62,993 nt of DNA from an uncultured bacterium (GCA_964010765.1 CAXGMD010000008.1:1-62993), one strand, 5' to 3'; positions 35,417-50,295 are shown, counted from the first letter of the stretch. Made by a program: numbers and translations. Notes: a model not told the origin generated them from the sequence alone.

Positions 35417-35662
35417 TAATACAAAGCAAATTGGAATGGGGTGGTGTTAGCCCTTAGTAAGTAATCTCATAATGGAACTAGCAGATTGTTTGGTAACAGC
35501 AAGCCGTACCCCTTTTGTGGTTTGAAATATCTGGGTATTCGTAGTAAATGATCGTTTCATTTGATGAATATTTTGTGACTAATTGTTACGGAACACCTTA
35601 TCGCAAAATTAAATTTATTCGTTGATTCCATCTAAATGAAAATTTCTTGTCGAGATTAGCCA

Positions 35663-36175
35663 ATGAACCATCGCATCCTGGTGATTGATGATGATCCGAA
35701 GATTCTAGAAACCTGTCAGATGATTCTGGCTCCAGAGACATCAAAAGCTGGGGAAGAACTAGAATCTATGGCAGGTGAGTTGTTTGAGGAAGAAGTAGAG
35801 AATGGTCCAGATGAAACCCTGAATATCAAATTTGAAGTAACGACAGCTAATGAGGGAAAGATTGGAGTTGATGAGGTTGGTAAAGCTCTACAAGCTGAAC
35901 AACCATTTACGATGGCATTTGTTGATATCCGGATGCCTTACGGAATTGATGGTCTCGAAACCGCTCGTCAGATTTTGAGTATTGATCCGGATATGGAAAT
36001 TATTATTCTTACCGGATACTCAGACACCCCACGCCAAAGTATGGCTCGGCAATTGGGTGTCAGTAATTTTCAATTGCTAAAAAAACCGTTTGATCCTGAT
36101 GAATTGATGCAAATGGCTCAGTTCTTGGCTCATCGACATGATATGCATCAGCGCAGAGGTGAGCAAAGCAAATGA
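35663..36175 (+). CDS. Stand-alone response regulator receiver (paralog 1)
   Basis: ILVIDDD, AFVDIRMP, ILTGYS, LLKKPFD; acidic insertion after helix 1. Confidence 0.88.
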   Translation: MNHRILVIDDDPKILETCQMILAPETSKAGEELESMAGELFEEEVENGPDETLNIKFEVTTANEGKIGVDEVGKALQAEQPFTMAFVDIRMPYGIDGLETARQILSIDPDMEIIILTGYSDTPRQSMARQLGVSNFQLLKKPFDPDELMQMAQFLAHRHDMHQRRGEQSK

Positions 36176-36210
36176 GAAAAAACATGAACAATGTTTAGGA
36201 GTTTTCAGCT

Positions 36211-36699
36211 ATGCGTGTCTTAGTAATTGATGATGATCCTAATATTCTGGAGACCTGCCGCTTTATTCTTGGAGATGAGGATCAAAGCGCAAAACAGGAT
36301 TTGCAGATGATGGCTAGTGCTCTCTTCGATAATGTAGAGGAAGTGGAAGAAGAGATGGCCAGTAACTTTGAGGTGACTACGGTCAATCAGGGTTTGTTGG
36401 CTTTGGATGAAGCAAGTAACGCAATTAGCGAGGGCAACCCTTATCAAATTGCGACCATTGACATGCGGATGCCACCGGGAATCAATGGTCTGGAGACCGC
36501 GAAGCGCTTGATTGAAATTGATCCCTCCATCGAAATTGTGATTGTGACAGCCTACTCTGACACCTCAAGAATGAGCATGGCCAAGGAACTAGGTGACGGT
36601 CGATTTTTACTGTTGAAAAAACCTTTTGATCCAGACGAACTAACCCAAATCGTTCAATTTTTGGCAAATCGAAGAGACAAAGAATTCTTGGAGAATTAA
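36211..36699 (+). CDS. Stand-alone response regulator receiver (paralog 2)
   Basis: VLVIDDD, ATIDMRMPPG, IVTAYS, LLKKPFD; aggag RBS. Confidence 0.88.
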   Translation: MRVLVIDDDPNILETCRFILGDEDQSAKQDLQMMASALFDNVEEVEEEMASNFEVTTVNQGLLALDEASNAISEGNPYQIATIDMRMPPGINGLETAKRLIEIDPSIEIVIVTAYSDTSRMSMAKELGDGRFLLLKKPFDPDELTQIVQFLANRRDKEFLEN

Positions 36700-36756
36700 A
36701 AGTTGCTCACTAAAGCCGAAGTGCAAAATGCATAGCGATACTGAAGGTAGTCCCTC

Positions 36757-38106
36757 ATGACTCATCGGATTCTCGTAATTGATGACGATCCAAAAATACT
36801 AGAGACTTGCCGTTCAGTTCTGGCACCGGAAGCCAACGTGGCAGGAGAGGAATTGCAGGCCATGGCAGATTCCCTCTTCGGTACTCAGCGAGTGGCTCCG
36901 GAAGAAGGCGTCGGCAAAGTACGTCAACACTTTGAAGTAACCACGGTTAACCAAGGGTTGCTGGGCTTGGATGAAGCAGTCAGGGCGAACAAAATTGGCC
37001 AACCGTTTTCAATTGCCTTCATCGATATGCGAATGCCTCCAGGCATTGATGGCCTAGAAACTGCGGAGCGGCTTGTCACGATTGATCCGTATATTGAAAT
37101 TGTGATCGTTACAGCTTACTCAGACACATCTCGTCAGAACATGGCTGATCAACTTGGTGACAGCAGGTTCTTACTGCTAAAGAAGCCATTTGATCCAGAC
37201 GAATTGACCCAGATGGCCCAGTTTCTCATCTACAGACGAGAAATTGACCAATTGAACAGAGCGTATGAGCGTTTTGTCCCCAAGGAATTCCTAAAACTGT
37301 TGAACAAGGAAAACATTCTGGAAGTGCAGATTGGTGATCACGCCGAAATGCCTATGTCCGTTCTCTTCTCAGATATTCGCTCCTTCACATCCCTCTCCGA
37401 ACGTCTTTCGCCTGCAGAAAATTTTCGCTTCATCAATTCCTACCTTGGATTGATGGGACCGGTAATCCGGAGGAATCGAGGCATCATCGACAAGTTTATT
37501 GGTGATGCAATCATGGCACTGTTCCAAGTGGAACCAGACGATGCTGTGCGTGGAGCCCTTGAAATGATTCGTTCGCTTCGCTGGTACAACCAGGGCCGTT
37601 CACGTGCAGGTTATTCATCGGTGCGAATCGGGATTGGTATTCATAGTGGGAATGTGATGCTGGGGACTATTGGGGAGCACTACCGAATGGAGAGCTCCGT
37701 GGTAAGTGATGCCGTCAATCTGGCTTCTCGCATTGAAATGCTAACCAAGCCTTTTAAGACCGATCTGTTGATTAGTGAAGGTACATACAACGGTCTGAAA
37801 GACCCGAGTCAGTACATGATTCGCCTAGTAGACATGCGCAAGGTGAGAGGTCGAAGTTTGCTGGTCAAACTTTATGAGGTTTTTGACGAGGAATACGAGG
37901 ACTTGCGGGAGTTCAAAAAAGAAAATTTAGAACTGTTTGAGCTAGCGGTGAAATCATTTCACGCTTCAGAATTTGAGGGTGCTCGCTCCCAATTTGAGCA
38001 TCTGGCTTCAATGGGAGTTGAGGATAGCCTTGTGGAGCTTTACTTGGAACGCCTTAAACACATCGCTGAATATGGTGATGATGCCCCGATTGATGAGCAT
38101 TTCTAA
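36757..38106 (+). CDS. Receiver-domain class III adenylate cyclase
   Basis: Receiver paralog 3 followed by FSDIRSFT, IDKFIGDAIM, GIGIHSG, SDAVNLASRIE, VRGR. Confidence 0.9.
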   Translation: MTHRILVIDDDPKILETCRSVLAPEANVAGEELQAMADSLFGTQRVAPEEGVGKVRQHFEVTTVNQGLLGLDEAVRANKIGQPFSIAFIDMRMPPGIDGLETAERLVTIDPYIEIVIVTAYSDTSRQNMADQLGDSRFLLLKKPFDPDELTQMAQFLIYRREIDQLNRAYERFVPKEFLKLLNKENILEVQIGDHAEMPMSVLFSDIRSFTSLSERLSPAENFRFINSYLGLMGPVIRRNRGIIDKFIGDAIMALFQVEPDDAVRGALEMIRSLRWYNQGRSRAGYSSVRIGIGIHSGNVMLGTIGEHYRMESSVVSDAVNLASRIEMLTKPFKTDLLISEGTYNGLKDPSQYMIRLVDMRKVRGRSLLVKLYEVFDEEYEDLREFKKENLELFELAVKSFHASEFEGARSQFEHLASMGVEDSLVELYLERLKHIAEYGDDAPIDEHF

Positions 38107-38138
38107 GCCAATCCGAATCTTTTAAATCAGCTGAGTTC

Positions 38139-40136
38139 TTGATGAAGTTTGTTCGAAGCCTACAAAACGAGATTGTAATTTCGTTTATCCTACTCGCTAT
38201 GTTTCCAAGCCTCATTGGAGGCGTAGTGACTCTGATTTATTTTCAGAACATGATGGAGAAGGAAGCGCAACAAAATCTGGAACATGTGGCAGAACTATGG
38301 GCTCTGGCATCTGACCAGTGGTATCAAAATGCGGCAAAAGATATTCGACAGTTAGCCAATGCCCCCAATCTATGGCAGGCGGAAGCATTTGCACAAAGAA
38401 GCCTCTTTGAACCAGACCACTATGCTGGGATCTGGCAACTGAACTCGGAAGGCCAGTTGCTGCAAACGATCAAAGCAGGTGAATTGCCAGAAGAAACGGT
38501 ATGGGAAACTCTTAAGGAATTCAATCAAGCTGAGCTTGGCCCTCTGCAGCTGCTCAAATCAGGAACAATTGCGCTACCGATTCGGGTAGAAGTAGCTAAT
38601 GAGGGTCTGGTTGGTCCAGGTCAGGCCAATTCGAAACTGTTAGCTCTGCTCAGCAGTCAATCGATAGTGGAGTTGTTTACAGCAAGATATCAAGACGGAC
38701 AAAGCAGAGGATTTCTTGCCGATTCAGCGGGGAATTTACTCTCGTTTATGCCTGATAGAAGTCTGTCTGAAGAAACTTGGCAGTTGATTGAAAACTGTCG
38801 TGACCAGATCACTGGATCTGGGGTTGTGGTGAATGACTTCGGTGATGATGTAGTGACAGCTTTTCGCTGGCTAGGCTATCCGAATGCTTGCCTAGTTATA
38901 GAAGTCGATCGGGAAATCGCTATTGGCAAGCTTGGTGTACGTTTGCCTATACTAGTAACTCTGATCTTCGGAATCATCATTGGAATTTCGCTGTTAGGAG
39001 TTCGTTTTCTGAGTCGTCACTTGATGCAGCCTATTCATGAACTCGTCGGTATTGTCAATCAGGTTGCAGATGGAGATTTCACCTCTCGGCCTAAGGAAAG
39101 TCAATTAGTAGAGATCAAGAAGCTTCATCGAGCTTTTACGGATATGGCGAATAGCTTAGAAACCTACAACCGTTACCTTGAAGAGCGGGTTTCCCAGCGT
39201 ACCTTGGAATTGAATGAAAAAAATCTACAACTTCGCGAAACCATGCGCTTGCTCGATGAAGAAAAGAAAAAGCAGGTACAGCAGGCATACAACGCAGGTA
39301 TTGTTGAACACGCAATCAGTGTTCTGCACAACATCGGGAACGCTATTACCCCGCTAGCGGTCCGACTGCAAAAGCTTCATCAAAATAAGGCAGAATCCCA
39401 GTTTTCCAGCTATCTCCAACAATTATGTAGTTTGTTGGAACAGCACCAGGGTGACCTGGGAGATTTTTTCAGTTCTCCCCGCGGTCAACAGTTTCTGCCA
39501 TTCCTCAAGCAACTCACGCAAACTTCTGACCAACAGAAAGTGGATGAACTTAAGTCGATGGATGTGATGGCCCATCAGCTTGATCACATCACGGAAATCA
39601 TTGCTTTGCAGCAGAAGTATGCTACGCAGCAGTCGCAGACTGAAGAGATTCAGATTGCGCAGGTGATTGATGATGCCATGGAAATGATGAAGCCAGCATT
39701 CGATAAACGAAACATCATGGTCATCGAAGAAGTTCAACCAGAGCTACCAAAAATTCAAAATGATCCAAACAAGCTCGTTCAGATCTTTATGAATTTGTTC
39801 AAGAACAGCATTGAGAGCATTGATCAGTGTCTGCGTGCCCCCAAAGACGGGTATCAGGGGAGGGTCAGAGTGGGAGCTACGATCCTGGGAAGCGATCAAC
39901 TTCAGATGTATGTGGAAGATAACGGCCAAGGTGCTGAACCAGAGTCCCTGAAGCGGGCCTTTGAATTTGGATACTCCACTAAAAAGCGTGGTTCTGGTTT
40001 TGGTTTGCACGATTGCGCAAATTTTATACGTTTTCACAAGGGTATCGTTGAGTTGACCTCCGAGGGGGTTGGAAAGGGGGCAAAGATCACTTTCACTCTT
40101 CCAATCACCAAATCAAAAAACGAAACAGAAGTCTAA
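38139..40136 (+). CDS. Membrane sensor histidine kinase (periplasmic Cache-like, HAMP, HisKA, HATPase)
   Basis: Two TM helices, HAMP (QPIHELV...VADGDF), H-box VLHNIGN, NLFKNSIE, EDNGQG, GSGFGL. Confidence 0.87.
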   Translation: MMKFVRSLQNEIVISFILLAMFPSLIGGVVTLIYFQNMMEKEAQQNLEHVAELWALASDQWYQNAAKDIRQLANAPNLWQAEAFAQRSLFEPDHYAGIWQLNSEGQLLQTIKAGELPEETVWETLKEFNQAELGPLQLLKSGTIALPIRVEVANEGLVGPGQANSKLLALLSSQSIVELFTARYQDGQSRGFLADSAGNLLSFMPDRSLSEETWQLIENCRDQITGSGVVVNDFGDDVVTAFRWLGYPNACLVIEVDREIAIGKLGVRLPILVTLIFGIIIGISLLGVRFLSRHLMQPIHELVGIVNQVADGDFTSRPKESQLVEIKKLHRAFTDMANSLETYNRYLEERVSQRTLELNEKNLQLRETMRLLDEEKKKQVQQAYNAGIVEHAISVLHNIGNAITPLAVRLQKLHQNKAESQFSSYLQQLCSLLEQHQGDLGDFFSSPRGQQFLPFLKQLTQTSDQQKVDELKSMDVMAHQLDHITEIIALQQKYATQQSQTEEIQIAQVIDDAMEMMKPAFDKRNIMVIEEVQPELPKIQNDPNKLVQIFMNLFKNSIESIDQCLRAPKDGYQGRVRVGATILGSDQLQMYVEDNGQGAEPESLKRAFEFGYSTKKRGSGFGLHDCANFIRFHKGIVELTSEGVGKGAKITFTLPITKSKNETEV

Positions 40137-40211
40137 GAGATCTATCAAATTTGACGCTTTCATTTCCCAATTTTAGAAATCAATAGATGTGGACAGATAG
40201 GTAATCAGTTC

Positions 40212-42410
40212 ATGATGGACGCCGAGCAACAAAATCAAATTCAGATCAAACGTGATGCACTGAACATGAATGTGATGTCACTGAAGCCAGAGCACTTTCA
40301 GGATTTGGCTCATGTTGGCTCAATCCTCACAGAACTTGAAGAATTCGCATCATTGATGGATGGACTGGAGCAGCCTCAATTCAGCAAAATTTTGAAGGAA
40401 TTAGGGCATCGGCTTGGCCAAATTGTGGCGGAGTTGTCTCCATACGAATCTGGTCTGGAAGAATTTCAGCAACTTCATGAGCAGTTTGATAATGCATTGG
40501 AGCTTCTCTACGCAGGAGACCAAGAGGACGCTGATAAGATTCTGATCCATGCGTTGGATAGTAAATCAACAGATGGGAAGAATTTAGAATCACAGGATCA
40601 CTACAGTGATTACGCCAAGATTATCCAGCACTGCACTGATGAGATGAAAGGAGATGAAACCCTTGCGGAGTTCATTAGTGAGACTGAGGAAGGGCTCCAG
40701 AATACAGAGGAGACCCTACTTAGATTGGAAGAAGATTTTGAGGATCAAAAAGCGATCTCTAGTATCTTCCGTGTCTTTCATACAATCAAGGGGACTGCTG
40801 GATTTTTAGGTTTGACAGATCTAGGAAGCTTGGCTCATCGGACAGAAGATTTGATGGTTCAGGTCAACGAGGGAGAACGCGAAATCACATTAGAGATCCT
40901 TAACGCAATCCTGTGTGCGACGGATGGTTTATCCAAGTTGATTAGCCAAATGAAGGCTATGATTGCAGGAATGAGTTCAGACCCAGTGGATCTTCGAGAG
41001 GCCTATCAACTTTTGGATTATTTGCTAAGTGATGAAGTTTCGAGATCCGCCTCGGTTTTAGAAAATCCTACTCTTGAAACTATTAGCGTAACCTCACAAC
41101 CTCACTCTGAAGATCAAAAAGCTCTTACCGAAACTCACCCTGAAGCGGGTCAGAATTTAGCGAAGACTTCGAAGTCTCCCACCACTAAGGTTTCAAAAAC
41201 GAATGAGAACGTGGCAGCAACTCAAGTCATGGATATGCTGAAGATTCCAGCATTCAAACTTGATGAGTTGTCTGAGTTCATTGGTGAAATGGTGGTTGCG
41301 CTCTCGGTTTTGTCCCAGAACCCAACGATTGCCAATCTGGAAGATCGCAAATTACATGACCGATTGGATCAGTTGAACAAGATCACAGAGCAACTTCGGG
41401 ATCGAATCCTCAGTATTCGCATGTTTCCGGTCAAGAACGTTTTTTCAAAGCTGACAAGGCAGATGCGAGATCTCTCAAAAAAATCTGGTAAGCAGGTCAA
41501 ACTCACGATTCAGGGAGATGAAACATTAGTTGATAAGACGATCATAGATAGCATCTACGCCCCATTGATGCACATCATGCGAAATACGGTTGATCATGGA
41601 ATTGAAACTCCTGAGGAACGAATAGCAGCGGGTAAGTCCTCTGAGGGAACCGTCAAACTCTCCGCACATCACTTGGGTGATTCCATTCTGATTGAAGTGC
41701 GTGATGATGGGCGTGGATTGGATCGTCAAAAACTACTTTCAAAAGCCTTGGAACGTGGCTTGGTCAATGAGCGAGAGAAACTCACAGATCAACAAATCTT
41801 CATGTTCATCTTCACGAGTGGTGTTTCCACAGCTAAAGAAGTGACTGACATTTCTGGCCGTGGGGTCGGTATGGATGTGGTGAAGAAAGAGGTTGAGAAA
41901 CTTCGTGGCAAGATCAGCGTGGAGACCGAGGCTGGAAAGGGCACTGCCTTCTTGATCAAACTGCCCTTGACGACCTCAATCATTGAAGGGTTAGTAGTGC
42001 GTTTGGGCGAAAATCGCTTTGTTCTACCCATTCTTGATGTACACCTGACGCTGATTCCAAAAAAGGATCAACTTTATGACGTTCAAGATCGTGAAAGTGA
42101 GTGTTTGATTCTGGCTGGAGAAGTCATTCCAATAATGCGGCTTCATGAGTTTTTTGATGTCGAGGCTGATGTGATGGTCCCAGAGGAAGCAATCATTGTA
42201 GTTGTTAAGTACGGTGATAAAAAATATGGACTGATGGTCGATGAACTACTGCACCGGCAACAAATTGTGGTAAAGAATCTTGGAGAAACCTTCATCAATC
42301 TGCCTGGAATCACAGGAGGAACAATTCTGGGTGATGGGAGAGTCGGATTGATTCTAGATCCAGAGACGCTGATTCATCGCTCACACAACATCAACGTGAC
42401 GATCAATTGA
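40212..42410 (+). CDS. cheA: Chemotaxis histidine kinase CheA
   Basis: Hpt IFRVFHTIKG, HIMRNTVDHGIE, DDGRGL, SGRGVGMDVV, C-terminal CheW-like P5 (GTILGDGRVGLILD). Confidence 0.95.
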   Translation: MMDAEQQNQIQIKRDALNMNVMSLKPEHFQDLAHVGSILTELEEFASLMDGLEQPQFSKILKELGHRLGQIVAELSPYESGLEEFQQLHEQFDNALELLYAGDQEDADKILIHALDSKSTDGKNLESQDHYSDYAKIIQHCTDEMKGDETLAEFISETEEGLQNTEETLLRLEEDFEDQKAISSIFRVFHTIKGTAGFLGLTDLGSLAHRTEDLMVQVNEGEREITLEILNAILCATDGLSKLISQMKAMIAGMSSDPVDLREAYQLLDYLLSDEVSRSASVLENPTLETISVTSQPHSEDQKALTETHPEAGQNLAKTSKSPTTKVSKTNENVAATQVMDMLKIPAFKLDELSEFIGEMVVALSVLSQNPTIANLEDRKLHDRLDQLNKITEQLRDRILSIRMFPVKNVFSKLTRQMRDLSKKSGKQVKLTIQGDETLVDKTIIDSIYAPLMHIMRNTVDHGIETPEERIAAGKSSEGTVKLSAHHLGDSILIEVRDDGRGLDRQKLLSKALERGLVNEREKLTDQQIFMFIFTSGVSTAKEVTDISGRGVGMDVVKKEVEKLRGKISVETEAGKGTAFLIKLPLTTSIIEGLVVRLGENRFVLPILDVHLTLIPKKDQLYDVQDRESECLILAGEVIPIMRLHEFFDVEADVMVPEEAIIVVVKYGDKKYGLMVDELLHRQQIVVKNLGETFINLPGITGGTILGDGRVGLILDPETLIHRSHNINVTIN

Positions 42411-42434
42411 ACACGCAAGATCAGTCGAGGTAAA

Positions 42435-42923
42435 GTGATGAATGATCTATTTGAAAATTCGGAAGGGAAGTTACTGACTTTCCTGCTAAGAAACCAAGAA
42501 TATGGTATCAAAATTCTTGAGGCTCGTGAAGTTGTGGGCATGATGCACATTGATCCAGTCCCGCATACCTCGGATTTCATGAAAGGAGTGATCAATCTTC
42601 GTGGAAAGATCATTCCAGTGATTGATTTAAGGACCAAGTTCAAGATGCCTCAGGCGGCTCCGACCAATGAAACCTGCATCATTGTTGTTGATTTTGGCAA
42701 CGCCTTCACGGGGATCATCGTAGATTTTCTGATTGGGGTAACCCGAATTGAAGAGGTCAGCTTTGAAGAGACTCCACAGATGAGCGCTAACATTAGAGCC
42801 GAATTCATTTCAGGAATGGCCAAACTGGAGGATCGGGTCGTGATTGTTCTTGAACTAAAAAATGTTTTGTCTGCGAAGGCAATGGTAAGTATCTCAACAA
42901 ATCAACCTGAGATCGCATTATGA
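42435..42923 (+). CDS. cheW: Chemotaxis coupling protein CheW
   Basis: LTFLL...[19 protein letters not shown]. Confidence 0.94.
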
Positions 42924-44332
42924 CTGTTTCCATGCGAGGGCTTCTGAATCGGGGGGTCTGTGTCTTTGCTTTGCTGATTCTTCTTGGAGGAGAATTGTTT
43001 CTCAGAAGAGAAATGCTGCTGTCGCTCGAAGATTCCTCGGTAGATCAAGCGACTTTAGATACGCTGCATGGACTCTCGGCAACACATGAACTATGGCTCA
43101 TAGTACTCGCGGGAATTCTCGCAATGCTGTCGGGATTAATTTTTTGGAATACAGGAAGCGCCAGTATCAAACCTCTGAAAAAGATGGTTGAAGAATTGAT
43201 GACGGCTTCTTCACAACTTCGTAAAGCGTCTGAACAAGTTGCAAAAAATTCTGCTGAGCTTTCTAACGATTCTATGCAGCAGGCAAACAGTGGAGAACTA
43301 GCTTCTAATGTAATGCACGAAATTGCTTTGCCATCGATTGCTATCTTTTCCTCAAGTTCTATCCAAGTGGCAGAACAGATTGAGGATATCAATGCCCTGG
43401 CTCGCTCTGTTGAAGAGAATACACAGCGCACCTTAGAACTCTCTGCAGAAGCCCGCGCAGCGGCAGAGAGCGGGGTTCAGGCGATGAGTGAGATTAGCAG
43501 TGCGATGCGAGGTGTTCAGGAAGGCAGTTCCCGAATTACGGATATCATTGAGGTGATTGATACGATCACACATCAAACGAAGATGCTGGCAACCAATGCA
43601 GCGATTGAGGCAGCCCGGGCTGGTGAGCAGGGGAAAGGTTTTGCGGTCGTTGCTGATGAGGTGTCTAAGTTGGCAGAAAATTCTAAAAAGGCTGCTCGTG
43701 AGATAGGTGAACTGATTAGAGAAAGTGTTGCCAAGGCCAGAGATGGAGGAAAGCTTGCTGCCGATGGAGAAGCAGCCCTTCAAAATATCCTACAAACGGT
43801 GGTTGAAGTTGTGGACCTCGTAAGCGATGTTGCCCTTTCTGCTTCTGAGCAAACAGAGAAAATGCGAGAAGCTGAGAGGCTGATCATTGAAATCAAACAG
43901 GCTTCAACAGATCAAAACAAGCACACTCCTGAGTTGGCGACTGCTATTCAGGATATGATCAAAGTTGCTCAGAAATCAGCAATGAATGCTGAGTCTGGGA
44001 CCGTTGCAGCAGAACAACTTTTTGCCCAAGTACAGATCTTGAGTGACTTGGTAGATCGTCTCGCATCCCAGATAGGTACTTCCAAAAAATCTCAAATAGC
44101 ACCAATGCAAGCTTCGAAGCCCAAAAAGGAAGCTGTCAACAATGCTCGCTTGCTGCCTGCTCCATCTAAAAAGTCAGGTCCAACCAAGTTTAATCCAGAG
44201 ATGAAACGCCCACTGGCAATGAAAGCTTCGACTTCAAATATCAATCAATCCAGTTCTTCCAAATCAAAACCTGATCCTCAAAGCAAGCCCTCCGATATCA
44301 TTCCCATGCGGGACGACTTCTCAGAATTCTGA
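42920..44332 (+). CDS. Methyl-accepting chemotaxis protein with minimal periplasmic loop and C-terminal pentapeptide
   Basis: Two TMs about 29 aa apart; [23 protein letters not shown]; ends DFSEF. Confidence 0.9.
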
Positions 44333-44376
44333 GAGATTTCTTTACAGGGTTTCTCTCCAAAGCGAGCAATCTTCTT

Positions 44377-46110
44377 ATGGTGTCTCGATTGGGGCTAACG
44401 TCCCGAATTCTGCTTGCCAGTAGTTTTGTAATAATTGTGCTTGCTCTACTACGATTAGGTGTCAATTGGGTGTTGATTGAAGATCAGGTGATGAAAGAAA
44501 TTCTATTGGAATCCAAGGCACTGACTCAGCAGGCTCAGATTGTCTTGAAACAAAGTGCTCAGATTCATGTTCAGTACGTTGAAAAATTGGTAGAGAAGGA
44601 GCAATTAATCACTCAGAATACAAGTAGCATTAAAGGCCTTCCCACCAGCGTAATCCCCATTCATTTCGCTCAGGAAGTTGCTCAGCAAGGATTGAAAAGT
44701 GAGTACTACAGTTTACGAGTAATTCGAAAAAATATCTCAAATCAAGCTGTGCTCACAGATTTGGCCGTCCTTAATCATCTGCGCGAGAATGAGCTTACTG
44801 AACTAATTAAATTGGATGAAAAACAGAATGTTTTCCGCTATGTCAGTCCCATTCGAGTGGGCCAGGAATGTATGGTCTGCCATGGTGCCAAAGAAAGTCT
44901 GGAGCAGGACCCATCAAGCACATTAAATAATGAATTGCGTGGTTGGAAAGTTGGGGATATCCCAGCAGCATTTGCTGTGATTGTGGATCTTCAACTTATT
45001 TCGGATCGATTCCAAGAAACCATACCAAGACTCCTCTTGGTGAGTCTAATCGCGCTTTGTTTTGGGCTGGTGATCGCATTTATGGTCACTTATTCGATCT
45101 TGAGACCGCTAAAGAGTTTTGTCATTCGACTGCATAAAATGGCTCAGAAAAACGTAAGTATCGCTGAACAGGTTAGCCAAAATAGTAATAGCCTGACTTT
45201 GTCGAATGGGAACCAAGCCACTCATCTTTTGAAGGTGATGGAAAAGATTAAGGAACTTGGAACACACGCTCTGGAAAATCTAGACAAGGCCCAGTTGAAC
45301 ATAAATTCCACTAATCAATTGACCGACTCGTTTCAACTGATCATTGCTCAATCCCAATCCACAGAGCAGGCTGTTTCAGACATGAAAAACTCAATCAAAG
45401 AGGGCTCTGAATCAATGGTAAATATCATGAGTGTGCTACTCTCTGTCAGAGATAGTGGCTTGCTCATCAACAAAATTTTGGAGTCCCTGAATAGTATCAC
45501 TCAGCAGACGAAGATGTTGGCTACAAATGCTGCGATTGAAGCAGCTCGAGCAGGCGAGCATGGAAAAGGGTTTGGAGTAGTAGCCAATGAGGTCGCTAAA
45601 CTCGCTGAAAACTCAAAGCTTGCTACTCATCAGATTTCAAAGCTGATCTCAGATTCAGCACAGCAAGGTATGCAAATAGGCGAGTTGGCTGATAGGGGAG
45701 GTCAATCACTGAAGCAACTAGAGAACAAGTTTGAAGCTCTTTCAGATTTTGTAGAAGACTTGGCAAAGTCTGTCCTTCTAAATAGTGACAATGTCATAGC
45801 TATCAACGACCGAGCTTCTAAAGTGAGTGAGTTGTCAATGTCCCAATCAAAGGAAACGGAAGATCTGCTCTTTCTTCTTCAGCAGATGGATGAAAATGAA
45901 CACCAAAACAAGAGCTTTACAGATAAGACCTTGATCGAAGCCCATCAGCTACATGAAGGAGCCTTGCACTTACTGGGATTGATCAAAGAGATTGAATGGC
46001 TAATCTCAGGTGATGAAAATTCAACCAAAATTTCGAAAAACAGGCTGGATAATCCAAGCAAATTAGAACGTCTGCAATTACCTTCAAATACAAAAAATTT
46101 GGGTGGTTGA
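44377..46110 (+). CDS. Methyl-accepting chemotaxis protein with periplasmic heme c-type (DUF3365/Tll0287-like) sensor
   Basis: TM, then FRYVSPI...ECMVCHG...GWKVGDI, then [25 protein letters not shown]. Confidence 0.85.
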
Positions 46111-46113
46111 ACT

Positions 46114-46938
46114 TTGCAGATGTTACTTCCTCAAATGGATGATTCGGAGTTTGAAGACTTCCGAAAACTGATACACGAAAGTATCGGTATTAGCCTGTCA
46201 CTGCAGAAGAAGCAGTTGTTGATGACTCGACTGTACCGACGGATGTATCAACTTGGAATCAACTCTTATGGAGAGTATTGGGCGCATGTCCTGAATGACG
46301 AAACGGGTTCGGAAATGGTTTTGTTGTTGAACGCCGTTTCCACGAACAAAACGGATTTTTTTCGGGAAAGCGATCATTTCACTTTTTTGAAAAATGAGGT
46401 TTACCCCCAACTCCAAAAACAACAAACGATCCGTATATGGAGTTGTGCCTGTTCAAGTGGTGAAGAGGCCTACACAATTGCAATGACGTTGCTTGATGCA
46501 TTTGGTGGAGTATTGGGTGGTCGAGACGCAAAGGTTCTAGCTACTGATATCTCGACTCGCATGCTGGATCAGGCGGAACTAGGCCGCTATCCAGTCAATC
46601 AGTTGCCCTTAATACCGGAAGTTTTGCGCAATCGTTATTGTCAGATTCTCCCGGAAACGAATGGGGAGATGTTTCAGGTTAGTAGTCAATTAAAGGCATT
46701 GATTCGATTTCGCCGGTTGAACCTCATTCAGGAATATCCTTTACGGACCCAGTTTGATTTCATCATGTGTCGAAATGTCATGATATATTTCGACCGGGAT
46801 GACCAAGAAAAATTGATTGAACGGTTGAGCGGCTATATCAAACCTGGTGGTTATCTCTTTGTGGGTCACTCAGAAAGTTTGATTGGTCTCCAGAATTCCT
46901 TGAAATATGTACAAAGCTCCATTTACCAGCGGATCTAA
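46114..46938 (+). CDS. cheR: Chemotaxis methyltransferase CheR
   Basis: STNKTDFFRE, IWSCACSSGEEAY, ATDIS, CRNVMIYF, GHSES. Start may be the ATG at 46120. Confidence 0.95.
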   Translation: MQMLLPQMDDSEFEDFRKLIHESIGISLSLQKKQLLMTRLYRRMYQLGINSYGEYWAHVLNDETGSEMVLLLNAVSTNKTDFFRESDHFTFLKNEVYPQLQKQQTIRIWSCACSSGEEAYTIAMTLLDAFGGVLGGRDAKVLATDISTRMLDQAELGRYPVNQLPLIPEVLRNRYCQILPETNGEMFQVSSQLKALIRFRRLNLIQEYPLRTQFDFIMCRNVMIYFDRDDQEKLIERLSGYIKPGGYLFVGHSESLIGLQNSLKYVQSSIYQRI

Positions 46939-46983
46939 TCGTGATGAATCCAACTCTTTATCCAAAATTCAGAGGCAAATAAA

Positions 46984-48030
46984 ATGACAGGCGGGCCAGT
47001 CAAAGTGCTGATCGTGGATGATGCACCGATCGTAAGAAATGTCCTCACAAAAGAACTCAGTCGTGATTCGCGTATTGAAGTCGTTGGGGCTGCTGAGGAT
47101 GCTTACCAAGCTAGGGATATGATCATTGAAAGGAATCCTGACGTGATCTCCCTTGACCTGCTGATGCCAAGAATGGATGGCTTGGAATTCATGGAGGTCT
47201 TGATGAAACACTGGCCCATGCCGATCATTGTGCTGAGTTCAATCGTCGATGATCATTGGGATCAAGCCCTAAGAGCCCTGGAGTTGGGGGCTATTGAAGT
47301 GTTCGCAAAACCAAACCCAGAAGATCCTGTGGCCTTCAAGGCAATGTTGGCCCGCTTGACAGATACTCTTGTCTGGGCAGCGAGGATTGACATGAACGAG
47401 GTGTTGCAGAAAAAAAAGATCCAGAGCAAACCAAGTCCTCTGAAATCCCCCTCTCTAGCAAGGGCTGCAGACAAGATAATTGCAATTGGTGCTTCAACAG
47501 GTGGGGCCGAAGCTTTGCGAAATATTATTCCACTGTTACCCCCAACAACGCCGGGTATATTGATTGTCCAGCACATGCCGGAGCACTTCACACATTCCTT
47601 TGCACAGCGACTTGATCAGATGTCACAGATTGAGGTGAAAGAAGCAGAAGACGGGGATGAGGTTTATCCGGGTAGGGCGCTATTAGCTCCGGGGGATCAT
47701 CACATGCGATTGAAAAACAAGAATGGAAAGTATGTAGTGGATATTGTCAAGGGACCGCTCGTTTCACGTCATCGTCCCTCGGTAGATGTACTGATGCAGT
47801 CCGTCGCAGATACTGCAGGCGCTGAAGGGGTAGGTGTGATGTTAACCGGAATGGGGAATGATGGGGCCAAGGGGATGCTGTCCATGAGAGAGCGAGGTGC
47901 TCGAACTATCGCACAAAGTGAGGAAACCTGCGTGGTGTTTGGTATGCCCCGTGAGGTCCTGAATAACGGTGGTGCAGAAACCGCTGTACCGCTGCCTGAT
48001 ATCGCCAGTAAGTTGATGAGTTTAGTCTAG
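46984..48030 (+). CDS. cheB: Chemotaxis methylesterase/response regulator CheB
   Basis: Receiver plus GASTGG, VQHMP, HRPSVD, LTGMGNDG. Confidence 0.95.
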   Translation: MTGGPVKVLIVDDAPIVRNVLTKELSRDSRIEVVGAAEDAYQARDMIIERNPDVISLDLLMPRMDGLEFMEVLMKHWPMPIIVLSSIVDDHWDQALRALELGAIEVFAKPNPEDPVAFKAMLARLTDTLVWAARIDMNEVLQKKKIQSKPSPLKSPSLARAADKIIAIGASTGGAEALRNIIPLLPPTTPGILIVQHMPEHFTHSFAQRLDQMSQIEVKEAEDGDEVYPGRALLAPGDHHMRLKNKNGKYVVDIVKGPLVSRHRPSVDVLMQSVADTAGAEGVGVMLTGMGNDGAKGMLSMRERGARTIAQSEETCVVFGMPREVLNNGGAETAVPLPDIASKLMSLV

Positions 48031-48045
48031 TCTTGGCGGTATTCA

Positions 48046-50295
48046 CTATCCGATTGGCAACTCAATCGTGAAGCTTGCTCCTCCGTCCTCTAGGTTCTTG
48101 AAGCGCACAAATCCGTTGTGATCAGAAATTGTTTGATGAATGATTGTTAGCCCCAAGCCGGTGCCATCCTTCTTGGTGGTCGCATACGGTTCGAACAAAC
48201 GATTGATGATTTCTGGTTCGATTCCAGTGCCGTTATCTGAGACTTCAATTCTCGCGATACGCAACTCCTCAGCGACACTTGTCTTGATTTGAACCGTCCC
48301 TTGCCTTAACAGACGGGATAGTCTGCCTTTATTCTCAACAGCTGTAACTGCATTATCTACTAGGTTGACCACCACGCGCTTCATTTGCTCTGCATCAATG
48401 GATAATTTGGGCATGTCCTCGCAAAAATCAGCTACCAACTGAATGCGAGTGGGCAGGTTCCCTTCATAAAGATCCACCACCTCTGATAGCACACCATGGA
48501 GATCCGTAGGTCGTAAGTGAGATTCTGGAATTCTTGCGAACTGTGAGAATTCGCTAACCATTCGTTTGAGTTGTTCCACCTCGTTGATGATTGTCTGTGT
48601 GGCATGCTGCAGAGGTTTGGGATCATCAACTTTGTTTGTGTACTTCCGACGAATTCGCTCCGCAGAGAGTTGAATGGGAGTAAGCGGATTCTTGATTTCA
48701 TGGGCTATCCGCCGGGCAACTTCTCGCCATGCCTGGGAACGCTGTAGACGATGAATTTCAGTGATGTTGTTGTAGACAGCGATCACACCGATAGGTTCAT
48801 TATCTCGATTCTGTAGTGTCAGCAGAGTAACTGCAACTTGGATGGGCTGTTGTTGGTGAATCAAAGTCAAGTGACGATAGACGCTCCCAGACTGATGCTC
48901 CTGTAATTGTTCCCACATTTCGATAAAAGCTGGGAGTGCGTCCTCTGAGAGCACTTCATCAATCCGATTATTTTCACTAACCTTGTCTTCTCGCCAGGGC
49001 AACAGTTGGTGAGCAGCTCGGTTCACACGACGGAGCCTACCCTCCGGATCCAGCAGGACTACGCCAGTACTGATATTCTCCAAGACTAATTCCAAGAGTC
49101 GGTGCTGTTCTTCCAAAGCTTGATGGCTTTGTTGAAGGTGCTCCGTTGTTCGTTCGAGGGCGATCTGATTAATTTCCAGATCTTGACTCATCGAATTGAA
49201 GGCTCGAACCAATAAACCAAAGTCTTTGTCCAAGGTGGACTTGGGTTTGACCTGATACCCCAATTCCCCATCAGCAACTCTTTGAGTGGCTTGGGCTAGA
49301 TCTTCAATTGGTTGAACAAATCCACGTGCAAAATAAAAGGCCAGCCAGGTCGCAACAAAGACTATACAGAGCGTCATCAGCAGAAAGATCACTAGATAGT
49401 ACCGGCGCAGCAAGTCCTCTGATTCCGTAAAGAATCTTGAATTGCGTTCCTGTTCGATGATTCCGTTGATCGCCTGAGTAATCGGTTGAGATGCGGGATG
49501 GAAAAGTTCGAGCAATAACTCCTGATTTTGAGGAGCTTTAAGTTTGTGCAAAGAGCGATAGAGAAAACGATCTTGTTGTTCTTCTACCAACCACGACTCT
49601 TCCTGTTGAAGAACTTGGTACCACTCAGCAGTACTCGGTGCTTTCCAAGAACGCTTGGCTTCTTCGGTACGAAGTTTTTGGTGGATAATTTCTCGCTGGG
49701 GATTATAGATCGTGAGTCCATCACCCAAGGATCTGCCAAGTCGCTCATCCAGCTCTTCTAGGTTTGCGAAGAGGTCGGGGTTCTGCTGAAGGGTCTGCCG
49801 GAGAACCCAGCTTTCCAATGCTAGCATCTCTTTCAAGTCACGATGATAAACCTCAGAGACCTGACGTGCGTTATCAACTACTGACTCATGCTGTCCAGTC
49901 AGCCAGGATTCCAATGTAGTAGAGATGAAACTACTGGCAAAGAGGTGGAAGGCCATTGCTGGCAAGGAAAGAAGTGTGAATGCCGCGATCAACTTGGTCT
50001 TCAGAGTAACACCAAGTACCTGCTTGTGCCGCTCAACGACAAGCTTCAGCAGGTTTTTGGCGATCATGTAGAAGACAACCGCCAACAAGACGATGTTGAT
50101 GTTGATTGCTACAAAGAGGATCAGGCGGGAATTGACACTTCCAGTGTCTGGCAGTCCTTGGCGAGTATTGAAGTAGACAAGAAAAACAATCAGTAGCAGG
50201 AGGATGGCGGTGGCCAACAACCTGTGGCGGATGCGAGGGTCGGCCTCGAGAAGTGTGCTGAGGCCCGCCCGCGCTTCGGCAAGGCGGAGACGCAT
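48046..50295 (-). CDS. ntrY: NtrY-like PAS/HAMP sensor histidine kinase
   Basis: Several N-terminal TMs, HAMP, PAS, AWREVARRIAHEIKNPLTPIQLSAER, FSQFARIP, FEPYATTK. Confidence 0.82.
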   Translation of the reverse strand: MRLRLAEARAGLSTLLEADPRIRHRLLATAILLLLIVFLVYFNTRQGLPDTGSVNSRLILFVAININIVLLAVVFYMIAKNLLKLVVERHKQVLGVTLKTKLIAAFTLLSLPAMAFHLFASSFISTTLESWLTGQHESVVDNARQVSEVYHRDLKEMLALESWVLRQTLQQNPDLFANLEELDERLGRSLGDGLTIYNPQREIIHQKLRTEEAKRSWKAPSTAEWYQVLQQEESWLVEEQQDRFLYRSLHKLKAPQNQELLLELFHPASQPITQAINGIIEQERNSRFFTESEDLLRRYYLVIFLLMTLCIVFVATWLAFYFARGFVQPIEDLAQATQRVADGELGYQVKPKSTLDKDFGLLVRAFNSMSQDLEINQIALERTTEHLQQSHQALEEQHRLLELVLENISTGVVLLDPEGRLRRVNRAAHQLLPWREDKVSENNRIDEVLSEDALPAFIEMWEQLQEHQSGSVYRHLTLIHQQQPIQVAVTLLTLQNRDNEPIGVIAVYNNITEIHRLQRSQAWREVARRIAHEIKNPLTPIQLSAERIRRKYTNKVDDPKPLQHATQTIINEVEQLKRMVSEFSQFARIPESHLRPTDLHGVLSEVVDLYEGNLPTRIQLVADFCEDMPKLSIDAEQMKRVVVNLVDNAVTAVENKGRLSRLLRQGTVQIKTSVAEELRIARIEVSDNGTGIEPEIINRLFEPYATTKKDGTGLGLTIIHQTISDHNGFVRFKNLEDGGASFTIELPIG

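What the first reader, a model, noticed from the sequence alone, without database searches (positions are those of the whole stretch)
35663..48030. Candidate chemosensory-to-cAMP pathway: three receivers, an adenylyl cyclase and a second kinase joined to a che cluster without canonical CheY
Seen: ten consecutive + strand genes with short gaps, in the order REC, REC, REC-cyclase, membrane HK, cheA, cheW, MCP, heme-motif MCP, cheR, cheB. There is no ~120 aa CheY, CheZ, CheX, CheC or CheD in the cluster. Established: some chemosensory systems control second messengers rather than flagella (Pseudomonas Wsp via the REC-GGDEF protein WspR; Chp via cAMP). Inference: CheA and/or the HK phosphorylate the receiver fused to the cyclase, giving a Wsp-like architecture with cAMP output and two converging inputs, with the free receivers acting as sinks or shuttles. 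I do not recognise this arrangement as a characterised system.
Basis: partly seen in the sequence, partly recalled or inferred. Interest (0 to 1): 0.75.

Follow-up and report, generated by a model that had tools for sequence, protein, structure and literature searches.

The report
Chemoreceptor gene cluster joined to cAMP cyclase
A marine bacterium carries a complete chemoreceptor signalling gene set with no ordinary CheY, placed directly after a sensor kinase and a phosphorylation-controlled cAMP-making enzyme, so it may turn chemical sensing into a cAMP signal, though that link is not yet shown.

Summary
Ten tightly packed + strand genes (35663-48030) encode REC, REC, REC-class III cyclase, a dCache/HAMP membrane histidine kinase, CheA, CheW, an MCP with a C-terminal tether pentapeptide, a c-heme (Tll0287-like) MCP, CheR and CheB. 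The 63-kb window holds no CheY, CheZ, CheC, CheD, CheX or CheV.

All phospho-acceptor and catalytic residues are present. The cyclase has the adenine-type Lys/Ser pair.

New findings:
- The two free receivers are recent tandem duplicates of the cyclase's own receiver.
- This receiver type is otherwise mostly the N-terminal receiver of hybrid kinases, not a CheY type.
- In relatives, cyclase, kinase and CheA share a contig only in the nearest lineage (56-75% identity). A more distant relative keeps cyclase and kinase without a detectable matching CheA.

Best reading (confidence 0.45): an ancestral kinase-to-REC-cyclase pair gained a chemosensory module, as in Myxococcus Che3/CrdS/CrdA, and both inputs set cAMP output. 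CheA-to-receiver transfer is inference only. Two insulated neighbouring systems remain a serious rival.

One earlier table lists a REC-cyclase regulator in a che cluster (strain NaphS2). My searches found no characterised case. Verdict: new variant of a known kind, moderate interest.

The parts
35417..35662 (.). 246-bp divergent intergenic region between panC (- strand) and the first receiver gene; likely promoter region of the cluster
   Evidence: Sequence read. panC identified by Pfam. The consensus promoter scan listed no + strand site here and is uninformative for this DNA. The promoter role is inference.
35663..36175 (+). REC1: single-domain receiver, 170 aa, with an insert of about 30 aa between alpha1 and beta2
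   Evidence: Pfam REC 3.3e-16, match starting at profile position 23. DDD at 9-11, D88, T117 and K141 present. 59% identical to the cyclase's receiver. Nests inside the REC-cyclase clade in the tree.
36211..36699 (+). REC2: single-domain receiver, 162 aa, same insert type
   Evidence: Pfam REC 2.1e-15. DDD at 7-9, D84, T113 and K137 present. 65% identical to the cyclase's receiver. Sister to it in the tree, support 96/86. Part of a tandem array with a period of about 540-560 nt.
36757..38106 (+). REC-cyclase, 449 aa: receiver, long alpha5/linker helix, class III (CHD) cyclase domain, C-terminal helical tail
   Evidence: Pfam Guanylate_cyc and REC. D90, T119, K143 and cyclase residues D206, K246, D250, N321, R325 are invariant in 19 orthologues. 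S314 sits at the second specificity position. AlphaFold model mean pLDDT 79.3, helix 147-171 leading into the CHD at 195-375. Best fold matches are the photoactivated adenylyl cyclases OaPAC and bPAC.
38139..40136 (+). Membrane sensor histidine kinase, 665 aa: TM, periplasmic dCache-like domain, TM, HAMP, long DHp with H397, catalytic domain
   Evidence: Pfam HAMP and HATPase_c, no HisKA hit. TM-like segments at about 12-35 and 269-292. Invariant L396 H397 N398 G400 N401, N552/N556, D594/G596/G598 and G620/G622 in 15 homologues. dCache_1 in homologues P0296 and P0297, and dCache leads from the Atlas at 0.94-0.97.
40137..40211 (.). 75-bp gap between the kinase gene and cheA, the largest in the cluster; the junction that decides whether this is one operon or two
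   Evidence: Sequence read. No terminator-like or promoter-like site listed here. By eye: TTGACG at 40151-40156, a 17-nt spacer, then TAGAAA at 40174-40179. This is a weak sigma-70-like candidate that fails the scan's rule of T at the last position.
40212..42410 (+). CheA, 732 aa: extra N-terminal helical bundle (1-116), P1/Hpt with H190, disordered linker with no P2, then P3, P4, P5; no fused receiver
   Evidence: Pfam Hpt, H-kinase_dim, HATPase_c and CheW. H190 invariant in 13 homologues. Model shows helices 4-116 at pLDDT about 80-90 and residues 275-343 below pLDDT 50.
42435..42923 (+). CheW coupling protein
   Evidence: Pfam CheW 3.3e-36. NCBIfam CheW 6.3e-29, below its equivalog cut-off.
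42920..44332 (+). MCP1, 470 aa: two TM segments with a loop of about 29 aa and no ligand-binding domain, signalling hairpin, disordered tail of about 75 aa ending in DFSEF
   Evidence: Pfam MCPsignal 2.7e-35. Aligns to E. coli Tsr over residues 146-342 against 8-203, a net difference of one residue. Best NCBIfam hit is Aer2. The tail sequence fits the xZxxZ tether-pentapeptide rule quoted in PMC7698151. The start codon overlaps the cheW stop by 4 bp.
44377..46110 (+). MCP2, 577 aa: periplasmic Tll0287-like c-heme sensor domain between two TM segments, signalling hairpin, no pentapeptide
   Evidence: Pfam Tll0287-like 1.4e-15 and MCPsignal 1.8e-26. CMVCH at residue 165 aligns with the CxxCH of Tll0287, PDB 5b82.
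46114..46938 (+). CheR methyltransferase, 274 aa, no TPR
   Evidence: Pfam CheR 3e-58 and CheR_N 4.9e-15.
46984..48030 (+). CheB methylesterase with ordinary N-terminal receiver
   Evidence: Pfam CheB_methylest 1.8e-64 and REC 3.9e-21. NCBIfam CheB subfamily at 394 bits, above the cut-off of 293. Its receiver is only 25-29% identical to the three upstream receivers.

Best explanation
The locus is one signalling unit whose output is cAMP.

**Proposed mechanism**
- The older core is a two-component pair. A periplasmic dCache/HAMP histidine kinase autophosphorylates on H397 and passes the phosphoryl group to D90 of the REC-cyclase.
- Phosphorylation acts through the long alpha5/linker helix on the dimeric class III catalytic domain and changes ATP-to-cAMP conversion.
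- A complete, methylation-adapting chemosensory module was added next to this pair in a sub-lineage. It consists of CheA, CheW, a pentapeptide-bearing scaffold MCP, a c-heme redox/gas-sensing MCP, CheR and CheB.
- The module has no CheY of its own. Its CheA therefore acts on the same receiver family, either donating phosphoryl groups from H190 or draining them as CheA3 does for CrdA~P in M. xanthus. It also controls CheB.
- The two single-domain receivers are recent tandem copies of the cyclase's receiver. They compete for the same donor(s) and so act as phosphate sinks or buffers that set the gain and decay of the cAMP response.

**Shown here:** gene content and order, intact catalytic and acceptor residues, adenine-type specificity pair, paralogy and tandem origin of the receivers, absence of CheY in the window.

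**Inferred:** co-transcription, every phosphotransfer step, the sign of regulation, and the order of evolutionary assembly.
For: 1. Ten same-strand genes with gaps of -4 to 75 bp and no terminator-like site at the kinase/cheA junction.
2. No CheY or auxiliary phosphatase in the cluster or in the 63-kb window. Two MCP genes lie inside the cluster.
3. All parts look active:
   - Receivers have the DD, D, T and K residues.
   - The cyclase has D206, D250, K246, S314, N321 and R325.
   - The kinase H, N, G1 and G2 boxes are invariant.
   - CheA H190 is invariant.
4. In a relative at 75%/56%/63% identity, the cyclase (P0003), kinase (P0294) and CheA (P0143) are each reported from a contig of the same length, 44658. 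In another relative, cyclase P0005 (72%) and CheA P0145 (62%) both come from a contig of 135787.
5. The association is not generic for this cyclase subfamily: 0 of 80 loci had CheA nearby.
6. The three receivers are 52-65% identical to each other and 25-29% to CheB's receiver. They form a tandem DNA array. REC1 and REC2 nest inside the REC-cyclase clade after its split from P0007/P0008, with support 97/88 and 96/86. Their alpha1 and beta5-alpha5 segments, which established two-component work identifies as partner-specificity regions, are nearly identical.
7. The model shows a sensor-helix-CHD layout like OaPAC and bPAC.
8. Precedents for an extra kinase plus a CheY-less che cluster acting on one regulator: PMC3147164 (abstract and section 6) and PMC3868531 (abstract).
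Against: 1. No result here shows CheA-to-receiver transfer. The one complex prediction gave no verdict and is recorded under Tried and rejected.
2. Co-location rests on matching contig lengths, not on seen gene order. The DNA of true orthologues could not be fetched.
3. The relative at 59% identity (P0007, contig 267310) has the kinase (P0297) on a contig of the same length, but no CheA from such a contig among the 120 listed CheA hits.
4. REC-cyclase orthologues at 38-52% identity, including Magnetococcus marinus MC-1, show no matching kinase or CheA fingerprints. The che link is therefore at best lineage-specific.
5. Conversely, contig 110466 pairs the kinase (P0296) and a CheA (P0149) without a listed REC-cyclase.
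6. This receiver subtype is mostly found on hybrid kinases: 45 of 58 scanned relatives carry HisKA and/or HATPase_c (58 of the 150 listed). It is not a CheY subtype.
7. The 75-bp gap holds a weak promoter-like pair of hexamers, read by eye, so cheA could have its own promoter.
8. The rest of the genome is unseen, so a CheY encoded elsewhere cannot be excluded.
Confidence: 0.45

Rival explanations
1. These are two insulated neighbours. REC1, REC2, the REC-cyclase and the kinase form an ordinary two-component cAMP module. The cheA-cheB block is a separate chemotaxis operon that signals to a CheY encoded elsewhere, for example with flagellar genes. Adjacency has no functional meaning.
For: - Cognate kinase/regulator pairs are usually adjacent (established knowledge). 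Here the cyclase gene ends 32 bp before the kinase gene.
- The largest gap (75 bp) lies exactly between the blocks and holds a weak -35/-10-like pair.
- The 59% relative keeps cyclase and kinase on a contig of the same length, with no matching CheA listed.
- The receiver subtype is not CheY-like.
- More than half of CheAs lack P2, so that feature does not argue for an unusual output (PMC10782961, passages read).
Against: - Same strand, no terminator-like site in the gap.
- No CheY in 63 kb.
- Two dedicated MCP genes inside the che block. In my recollection this is typical of non-motility systems.
- All three anchor proteins share a contig length in the nearest diverged relative.
- No flagellar genes in the window.
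Confidence: 0.3
2. This is a relay rather than convergence. CheA phosphorylates only the single-domain receivers REC1 and/or REC2, which serve as the system's CheY equivalents. These then modulate the kinase or the cyclase by protein-protein contact, for example by forming heterodimers with the cyclase's receiver. The cyclase's D90 is served by the kinase alone.
For: - Single-domain receivers occupy the place just upstream of cheA that cheY takes in ancestral F7 clusters (PMC7184735, passages read).
- They are paralogues of the cyclase's receiver and keep its alpha4-beta5-alpha5 region. In many regulators this region is the dimer face (established knowledge).
- In R. centenum Che3, phosphate flows from CheA3 to a receiver of the second kinase and not straight to the output (PMC3868531, abstract).
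Against: - Near-identity of alpha1 among the three receivers predicts a shared donor, not different donors.
- No test of any contact was possible.
Confidence: 0.12
3. The cyclase domain makes a product other than cAMP (cGMP or another nucleotide), or it is a regulatory pseudo-enzyme. The pathway output would then not be cAMP.
For: The nearest solved relative by sequence, Cya2 (PDB 2w01), is titled a guanylyl cyclase in the fold-search table.
Against: - Cya2 has Glu where this protein has K246, and Gly where it has S314, as seen in the alignment.
- Lys plus Ser/Thr is the adenine-type pair. OaPAC has Thr at the same position in the alignment. K246 is invariant across the 19 orthologues, and the second position reads S in the SAR324-type rows and T in the Magnetococcales rows of the alignment.
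- Both metal aspartates and the Asn/Arg pair are invariant.
Confidence: 0.05

Closest known systems
Myxococcus xanthus Che3 with CrdS/CrdA (PMC3147164; abstract and section 6 read)
   Same: [quoted passage not shown]
- It sits beside a classical sensor kinase and its response regulator, and both the kinase and CheA act on that one regulator.
- The authors conclude that the che module was inserted next to an older two-component pair. The contig fingerprints here hint at the same history.
   Different: - The output there is an NtrC-type transcription factor, not a nucleotide cyclase.
- No duplicated free receivers.
- CheA3 was shown to destabilise CrdA~P, whereas nothing is measured here.
- The kinase families differ: NtrB-like there, dCache/HAMP with an LHNIGN H-box here.
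Pseudomonas Wsp system (WspA-F plus WspR). Facts recalled; only titles and abstracts of related papers were seen in the listings.
   Same: A chemosensory module with CheR/CheB adaptation whose output is a receiver fused to a nucleotide cyclase encoded in the same cluster, so that receptor signalling sets a second-messenger level.
   Different: - WspR is REC-GGDEF and makes c-di-GMP.
- WspE is a CheA-REC hybrid.
- Wsp has two CheW-like proteins, one MCP, no second kinase and no free receivers.
- Here the cyclase is class III, and CheA has no receiver.
Rhodospirillum centenum Che3 with CheS3 (PMC3868531; abstract read)
   Same: A non-motility che cluster that contains a second histidine kinase, with phosphate flow that departs from the E. 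coli scheme.
   Different: - Both kinases there are receiver-kinase hybrids, and CheA3 phosphorylates a receiver of CheS3.
- The output is a single-domain CheY3 that controls cyst formation.
- Neither kinase here carries a receiver.
Pseudomonas aeruginosa Pil-Chp system and CyaB (recalled; abstract of PMC12129077 seen in the listing)
   Same: - A chemosensory system linked to cAMP.
- The catalytic domain of CyaB (PDB 3r5g) is a close structural match of the domain here: TM about 0.79 on the target and 31% identity.
   Different: - CyaB has no receiver domain and its control by Chp is indirect.
- Chp belongs to the type IV pilus class, with a multi-Hpt CheA-REC (ChpA).
Ancestral (stage 1-2) F7 systems such as P. 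aeruginosa Che2 and V. cholerae cluster III (PMC7184735; passages read)
   Same: - Order: receiver gene(s), cheA, cheW, MCP, cheR, cheB.
- The in-cluster MCP has a C-terminal tether pentapeptide fitting x-[HFYW]-x(2)-[HFYW] and a core that aligns with 36H Tsr with a net difference of one residue.
- A haem-based sensor is among the receptors.
- The function of those systems is stated to be unclear.
   Different: - No cheD, no anti-sigma-factor antagonist and no serine phosphatase genes here.
- The receptors here are membrane-bound rather than PAS/HAMP cytosolic.
- The class was not tested with class HMMs.
che cluster of delta proteobacterium NaphS2 (PMC3447774, supplementary file 3, row for cheR-TPR gene D8FCI6)
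   Same: The only earlier record I found of a che gene cluster whose response regulator is 'REC - CHD Mononucleotidyl cyclase'.
   Different: - It is listed in a table only, with no analysis or experiment.
- That cluster has a CheR-TPR fusion, whereas CheR here has no TPR.
- Whether it has a second kinase or free receivers is not stated in what I read.

Membership tests
Chemosensory (Che) pathway core | CheA with P1 (Hpt), P3, P4 and P5 domains | tested here: met
   Pfam Hpt 6.2e-14, H-kinase_dim 1.2e-06, HATPase_c 1.6e-17, CheW 2.1e-25. H190 invariant.
Chemosensory (Che) pathway core | CheW, at least one MCP, CheR and CheB | tested here: met
   Pfam hits for all four kinds. CheB is above the NCBIfam subfamily cut-off.
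ACF class of chemosensory systems (Wuichet and Zhulin classes, as used in MiST) | Assignment of CheA/CheB/CheR by the class-specific HMMs | not testable with these tools
The supplementary tables of PMC10782961 hold no SAR324 entry.
ACF class of chemosensory systems | No CheY-motor output and no CheZ/C/D/X/V; a multidomain receiver protein in the cluster | tested here: met
   None of these genes is in the cluster or the window. The REC-cyclase is in the cluster. This is context, not a class assignment.
Ancestral F7 systems (PMC7184735) | In-cluster MCP of heptad class 36H with a C-terminal pentapeptide | tested here: inconclusive
   The pentapeptide DFSEF fits the motif. The core aligns to Tsr over about 197 residues with a net difference of one residue. 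The helical arms appear about four heptads longer on each side, and no heptad-class HMM was run.
Ancestral F7 systems (PMC7184735) | cheD plus anti-sigma-factor antagonist and serine phosphatase genes in the cluster | tested here: not met
   None found by Pfam among the ten genes or their neighbours. The cluster is therefore not filed as F7.
Wsp-type system | REC-GGDEF output and CheA-REC hybrid kinase | tested here: not met
   The output domain is Guanylate_cyc, not GGDEF, and CheA has no receiver. It may work like Wsp but is not a member.
Class III (CHD) adenylyl cyclase, Lys plus Ser/Thr subtype | Two metal-binding Asp, substrate Lys plus Ser/Thr, and the transition-state Asn and Arg | tested here: met
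   D206, D250, K246, S314, N321 and R325. Five of the six are invariant in 19 orthologues. The sixth reads S or T in the rows of that alignment. Positions were mapped on alignments to Cya2 and OaPAC.
Phosphorylatable receiver domain | Acidic pair after beta1, phospho-acceptor Asp after beta3, Thr/Ser after beta4, Lys after beta5 | tested here: met
   Present in REC1, REC2, the REC-cyclase and CheB. The fold is recovered with beta1-beta5 in order, and the insert at 27-55 is disordered.
Che3/CrdS/CrdA-type arrangement (two-component pair plus CheY-less che module on one regulator) | Extra sensor kinase and its regulator encoded beside a che cluster that lacks cheY | tested here: met
Che3/CrdS/CrdA-type arrangement | Both the kinase and CheA act on the same regulator | not testable with these tools
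   This needs phosphotransfer and phosphatase assays.

The most novel reading that the evidence does not exclude
A methylation-adapting chemoreceptor array drives cAMP synthesis directly. CheA~P phosphorylates the receiver of a class III adenylyl cyclase. The cell would then get a temporally adapting (derivative-like) cAMP signal from a periplasmic c-haem sensor. That signal would be merged with a steady-state dCache kinase input and tuned by two recently duplicated decoy receivers. This would be the first direct Che-to-cAMP pathway, and a natural case of gain control by receiver-gene duplication.
Probability: 0.35. Interest if true: 0.7.

Novelty: new variant of a known kind. Interest (0 to 1): 0.5.

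Why it matters
Chemosensory pathways with non-motility outputs are known for c-di-GMP (Wsp), transcription (M. xanthus Che3) and development. The only cAMP link I know of is the indirect Chp/CyaB route.

A che module wired to a receiver-fused class III cyclase would add cAMP to the list of direct outputs. It would also give a compact system of ten genes, all soluble or reconstitutable, for two questions:
- What does adaptation by receptor methylation do to a second-messenger signal?
- How is a chemosensory module grafted onto an existing two-component pair?

The tandem triplication of the receiver is a clear, testable example of how phosphate sinks may arise.

The carrier appears to be an abundant uncultured marine lineage. 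Sources name close homologues SAR324 or Deltaproteobacteria MAGs. The pathway could therefore bear on redox or oxygen sensing in the dark ocean.

If the two blocks prove insulated, the finding reduces to an ordinary two-component cyclase lying next to an ordinary che operon.

Tried and rejected
1. **Fetching relatives' DNA.** The search for related loci with the alignment of 19 full-length REC-cyclases returned 80 loci that match only the generic cyclase domain (cyanobacteria, spirochaetes and others). None was from SAR324 or Magnetococcales.
3. **Complex prediction.** CheA P1 (residues 145-265) with the cyclase's receiver (1-170) gave 'no answer', score 0.00 in two runs, and the controls were not run. 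This is neither for nor against binding.
4. **CheA class.** NCBIfam scores for E. coli-type and haloarchaeal-type CheA are similar (397 and 385 bits) and do not discriminate. The CheA survey supplements hold no SAR324 rows.
5. **CheA N-terminal 150 residues as a second Hpt.**
   - BLASTP against P1 found nothing.
   - Relaxed Pfam found nothing credible.
   - No histidine is conserved there.
   - The model shows a confident helical bundle of unknown family.
6. **Kinase periplasmic domain and C-terminal tail of the cyclase.** Relaxed Pfam gave no hit. dCache is supported only by homologues' precomputed Pfam and by Atlas leads.
7. **Promoter scan.** It found fewer sites than in shuffled DNA (4 against 17.6 expected), so it is uninformative for this organism.
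8. **Locus L019.** This was the only cyclase locus with che genes. I rejected it as an analogue because its cyclase is CHD-hemerythrin without a receiver, and its che cluster has its own REC-HD-GYP.
9. **RNA elements.** Rfam and tRNA scans found nothing in the cluster.
10. **Wuichet and Zhulin 2010.** The paper could not be opened under the id I tried.

Full report
**What is there**

- two single-domain receivers (170 and 162 aa);
- a 449-aa receiver fused to a class III cyclase domain;
- a 665-aa membrane histidine kinase;
- CheA, CheW, two MCPs, CheR and CheB.

Gaps are 35, 57, 32, 75, 24, -4, 44, 3 and 45 bp. The flanks are housekeeping genes: panC and secA upstream on the other strand, and an NtrY-like kinase, ccmE, ccmC and gatB downstream on the other strand. 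The rest of the window is ordinary chromosome.

Sources name close homologues as MAGs of the SAR324 cluster, 'Deltaproteobacteria', 'Proteobacteria' or simply 'bacterium'. The organism is therefore probably a marine SAR324-type bacterium.

**No CheY**

Pfam on 48 ORFs found no CheY-size receiver and no CheZ, CheC, CheD, CheX or CheV. A phmmer scan of all 202 six-frame ORFs of 70 aa or more with local receiver queries found five receiver-bearing ORFs in 63 kb: the three here, CheB, and an NtrC-type regulator at 8091-9629. The rest of the genome is unseen.

**The parts look functional**

*Receivers.* All three upstream receivers and CheB carry the acidic pair, the acceptor Asp, the Thr/Ser and the Lys.

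*Cyclase.*
- It has both metal aspartates (D206, D250), the substrate Lys (K246) and the Asn/Arg pair (N321, R325). All five are invariant in 19 full-length orthologues.
- The second specificity position is S314. It reads T in the Magnetococcales orthologues in the alignment.
- In the printed alignments this position is Thr in the adenylyl cyclase OaPAC and Gly in Cya2. Cya2 also has Glu in place of K246.
- The enzyme is therefore predicted to make cAMP.
- An AlphaFold model built on the 19-sequence alignment (mean pLDDT 79.3) shows a normal receiver fold with a disordered insert at residues 27-55 between alpha1 and beta2. A long alpha5 helix (147-171) runs toward the catalytic domain (195-375), and a helical tail follows.
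- The best structural matches are the sensor-helix-cyclase proteins OaPAC and bPAC. For the catalytic domain alone, the best matches are Spirulina CyaC and P. aeruginosa CyaB.

*Kinase.*
- It has two membrane segments around a roughly 230-aa periplasmic domain. That domain is probably dCache: homologues P0296 and P0297 carry PF02743, and the Atlas gives dCache leads at 0.94-0.97. The window protein itself gives no Pfam hit.
- It has a HAMP domain and an H-box not covered by Pfam HisKA. L396-H397-N398-x-G400-N401 is invariant in 15 homologues, as are the N, G1 and G2 boxes.

*CheA.*
- It has an invariant P1 histidine (H190), no fused receiver, and no P2. Residues 275-343 are disordered in the model.
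- More than half of all CheAs lack P2 (PMC10782961, passages read), so this says little.
- It has an extra, confidently folded N-terminal helical bundle (1-116) that is conserved in relatives down to about 43% identity. The bundle has no conserved histidine and no family hit.

*The two receptors.*
- MCP2 has a periplasmic Tll0287-like domain whose CMVCH aligns with the haem-binding CxxCH of PDB 5b82. The 'heme-motif MCP' is therefore real.
- MCP1 has no sensor domain, only a loop of about 29 aa between two membrane helices. It ends in a tail of about 75 aa rich in Ser, Lys and Pro, followed by DFSEF.
- That ending fits the xZxxZ rule for CheR/CheB tether pentapeptides with a linker of at least 10 residues (PMC7698151, methods passage) and the F7 motif x-[HFYW]-x(2)-[HFYW] (PMC7184735).
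- MCP1 may thus be the docking receptor for the adaptation enzymes while MCP2 senses. This is inference.
- The core of MCP1 aligns with E. coli Tsr (class 36H) over about 197 residues with a net difference of one residue, and its best NCBIfam hit is Aer2.
- The order of receiver gene(s), cheA, cheW, MCP, cheR, cheB recalls ancestral F7 clusters, whose function is stated to be unclear.
- cheD and the anti-sigma antagonist and phosphatase genes of those clusters are absent, and no class HMMs could be run. I therefore do not file the cluster as F7.

**The three receivers are a recent tandem triplication**

- They are 52-65% identical to each other and 25-29% identical to CheB's receiver.
- At the DNA level they form a three-copy array with a period of about 540-560 nt.
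- A full HMMER scan of 1.84 billion representatives with REC1 gave 23210 hits at E of 0.001 or better, of which 33 were at 1e-30 or better. Apart from REC1's own cluster (93%) and a fragment of the REC-cyclase (61%), nothing exceeded 48% identity.
- I built a maximum-likelihood tree of 37 receiver segments. It contained the 3 window receivers, the first 175 residues of 14 of the 18 orthologues in alignment A1 (P0005, P0013, P0018 and P0024 left out), and 20 other insert-bearing receivers picked.
- In that tree REC1 and REC2 fall inside the REC-cyclase clade, after its split from P0007/P0008 (97/88). REC2 is sister to the window's own cyclase receiver (96/86).
- The tree has a midpoint root and 172 columns, so the order of events is suggestive only.
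- The alpha1 and beta5-alpha5 segments are almost identical in the three proteins. Two-component work identifies these segments as partner-specificity regions.

**What kind of receiver is it?**

Of 58 relatives scanned with Pfam (58 of the 150 listed, with the two known REC-cyclases left out), 45 carry HisKA and/or HATPase_c. Most of these have this receiver at the N terminus of a hybrid kinase. Of the other 13, one is a sigma-54 activator and the rest show receivers only (one of them with a weak PDE8A_N match). None has a cyclase domain. The subtype is thus a general relay receiver and not a CheY type.

**Is the junction of the two blocks conserved?**

I could not read it directly. Two indirect tests were possible.

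*Control.* Among the 80 loci, none has a CheA within 10 kb. The one locus with che genes is unrelated in architecture. Adjacency to a che cluster is therefore not a general habit of this cyclase subfamily.

*Contig-length fingerprints* in the three homologue tables:

| Contig length | REC-cyclase | Kinase | CheA |
|---|---|---|---|
| 44658 | P0003 (75%) | P0294 (56%) | P0143 (63%) |
| 135787 | P0005 (72%) | none listed | P0145 (62%) |
| 267310 | P0007 (59%) | P0297 (38%) | none among the 120 listed |
| 110466 | none among the 120 listed | P0296 (45% over 71% of the query) | P0149 (71% over 54% of the query) |
| 24834 (close relatives, 90%) | - | P0254 | P0141 |

Orthologues of the REC-cyclase at 38-52% identity, including Magnetococcus marinus MC-1, show no matching fingerprints.

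The method misses pairs whenever cluster representatives come from different contigs, so absences are weak evidence. The pattern suggests that the cyclase/kinase pair is older and that the che block joined it in a sub-lineage. That is the history proposed for M. xanthus crdSAB and che3 (PMC3147164, section 6).

**Transcription**

No terminator-like site lies in the 75-bp kinase/cheA gap. The promoter scan found fewer sites than in shuffled DNA and is uninformative. By eye, the gap holds TTGACG, a 17-nt spacer and TAGAAA, so an internal promoter cannot be excluded.

**Literature**

Searches combining chemosensory, CheA, response regulator and adenylate/adenylyl cyclase terms found no characterised chemosensory pathway with a receiver-fused class III cyclase as output. 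These searches cover the held open-access library only.

One survey of CheR-TPR clusters names 'mononucleotidyl cyclase' among the domains fused to receivers in such clusters. Its supplementary file 3 lists a single case, delta proteobacterium NaphS2 (PMC3447774).

The mechanistic precedents for an extra kinase in a CheY-less che system are M. xanthus Che3/CrdS/CrdA and R. centenum Che3/CheS3.

**Verdict**

The best reading is a kinase/REC-cyclase pair with a grafted chemosensory module and duplicated decoy receivers (confidence 0.45). Two insulated neighbours is the main rival (0.30).
- It is a new variant of a known kind of system. It has been catalogued once in a table and is uncharacterised.
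- Interest is moderate (0.5). The decisive tests are cheap: reading gene order in the named relatives, and phosphotransfer profiling.

Noticed in passing
window 40212-40560 (CheA residues 1-116): CheA has an extra N-terminal five-helix bundle, modelled at pLDDT about 80-90. It is conserved in relatives down to about 43% identity but missing in a Kuenenia homologue. It has no conserved histidine, no Pfam family and no similarity to P1. Its function is unknown. It could be a docking domain that replaces the missing P2.
   Followed up: partly
window 44100-44332 (MCP1 C terminus): MCP1 has no sensor domain. It ends in a low-complexity tail of about 75 aa followed by DFSEF, which fits the CheR/CheB tether-pentapeptide rule. 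The haem MCP next to it has no such ending. This suggests a division of labour between a docking receptor and a sensing receptor.
   Followed up: partly
window 35676-37224: The three receiver-coding units form a tandem DNA array with a period of about 540-560 nt and 60-80% nucleotide identity. Each has a poorly conserved acidic insert of about 30 aa between alpha1 and beta2, which is disordered in the model.
   Followed up: yes
window 48046-50295 (- strand): An NtrY-like HAMP-PAS-HisKA histidine kinase converges on cheB, only 15 bp away. No partner regulator lies next to it; the next gene is ccmE.
   Followed up: no
window 3086-4702 (- strand): An ABC permease (BPD_transp_2) of 538 aa is fused to HEAT repeats. 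It sits in an operon that looks like a urea or branched-chain amino-acid transporter operon, with a Peripla_BP_5 binding protein and two ATPases. The fusion is unusual.
   Followed up: no
window 19311-21257: FtsZ is 648 aa, far longer than the usual 380-400 aa or so, which implies a very long C-terminal linker. It follows ftsA.
   Followed up: no
window 21371-24514: Two FHA-domain proteins are followed by a low-molecular-weight phosphotyrosine phosphatase and a fructosamine-kinase-family protein. The genes overlap or nearly touch on the + strand. This may be a Ser/Thr/Tyr phospho-signalling operon beside the division genes.
   Followed up: no
window 6679-9629: A PAS histidine kinase and a sigma-54-dependent response regulator with overlapping genes. 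This is the only other receiver protein in the window.
   Followed up: no
L019 13851-20767 (- strand): A Syntrophorhabdaceae MAG locus has a che cluster (MCP with multiple HAMPs, CheW, CheR, CheD, CheB) that ends in a REC-HD-GYP regulator. A CHD-hemerythrin cyclase lies 2.5 kb away behind dsbC and enolase.
   Followed up: partly
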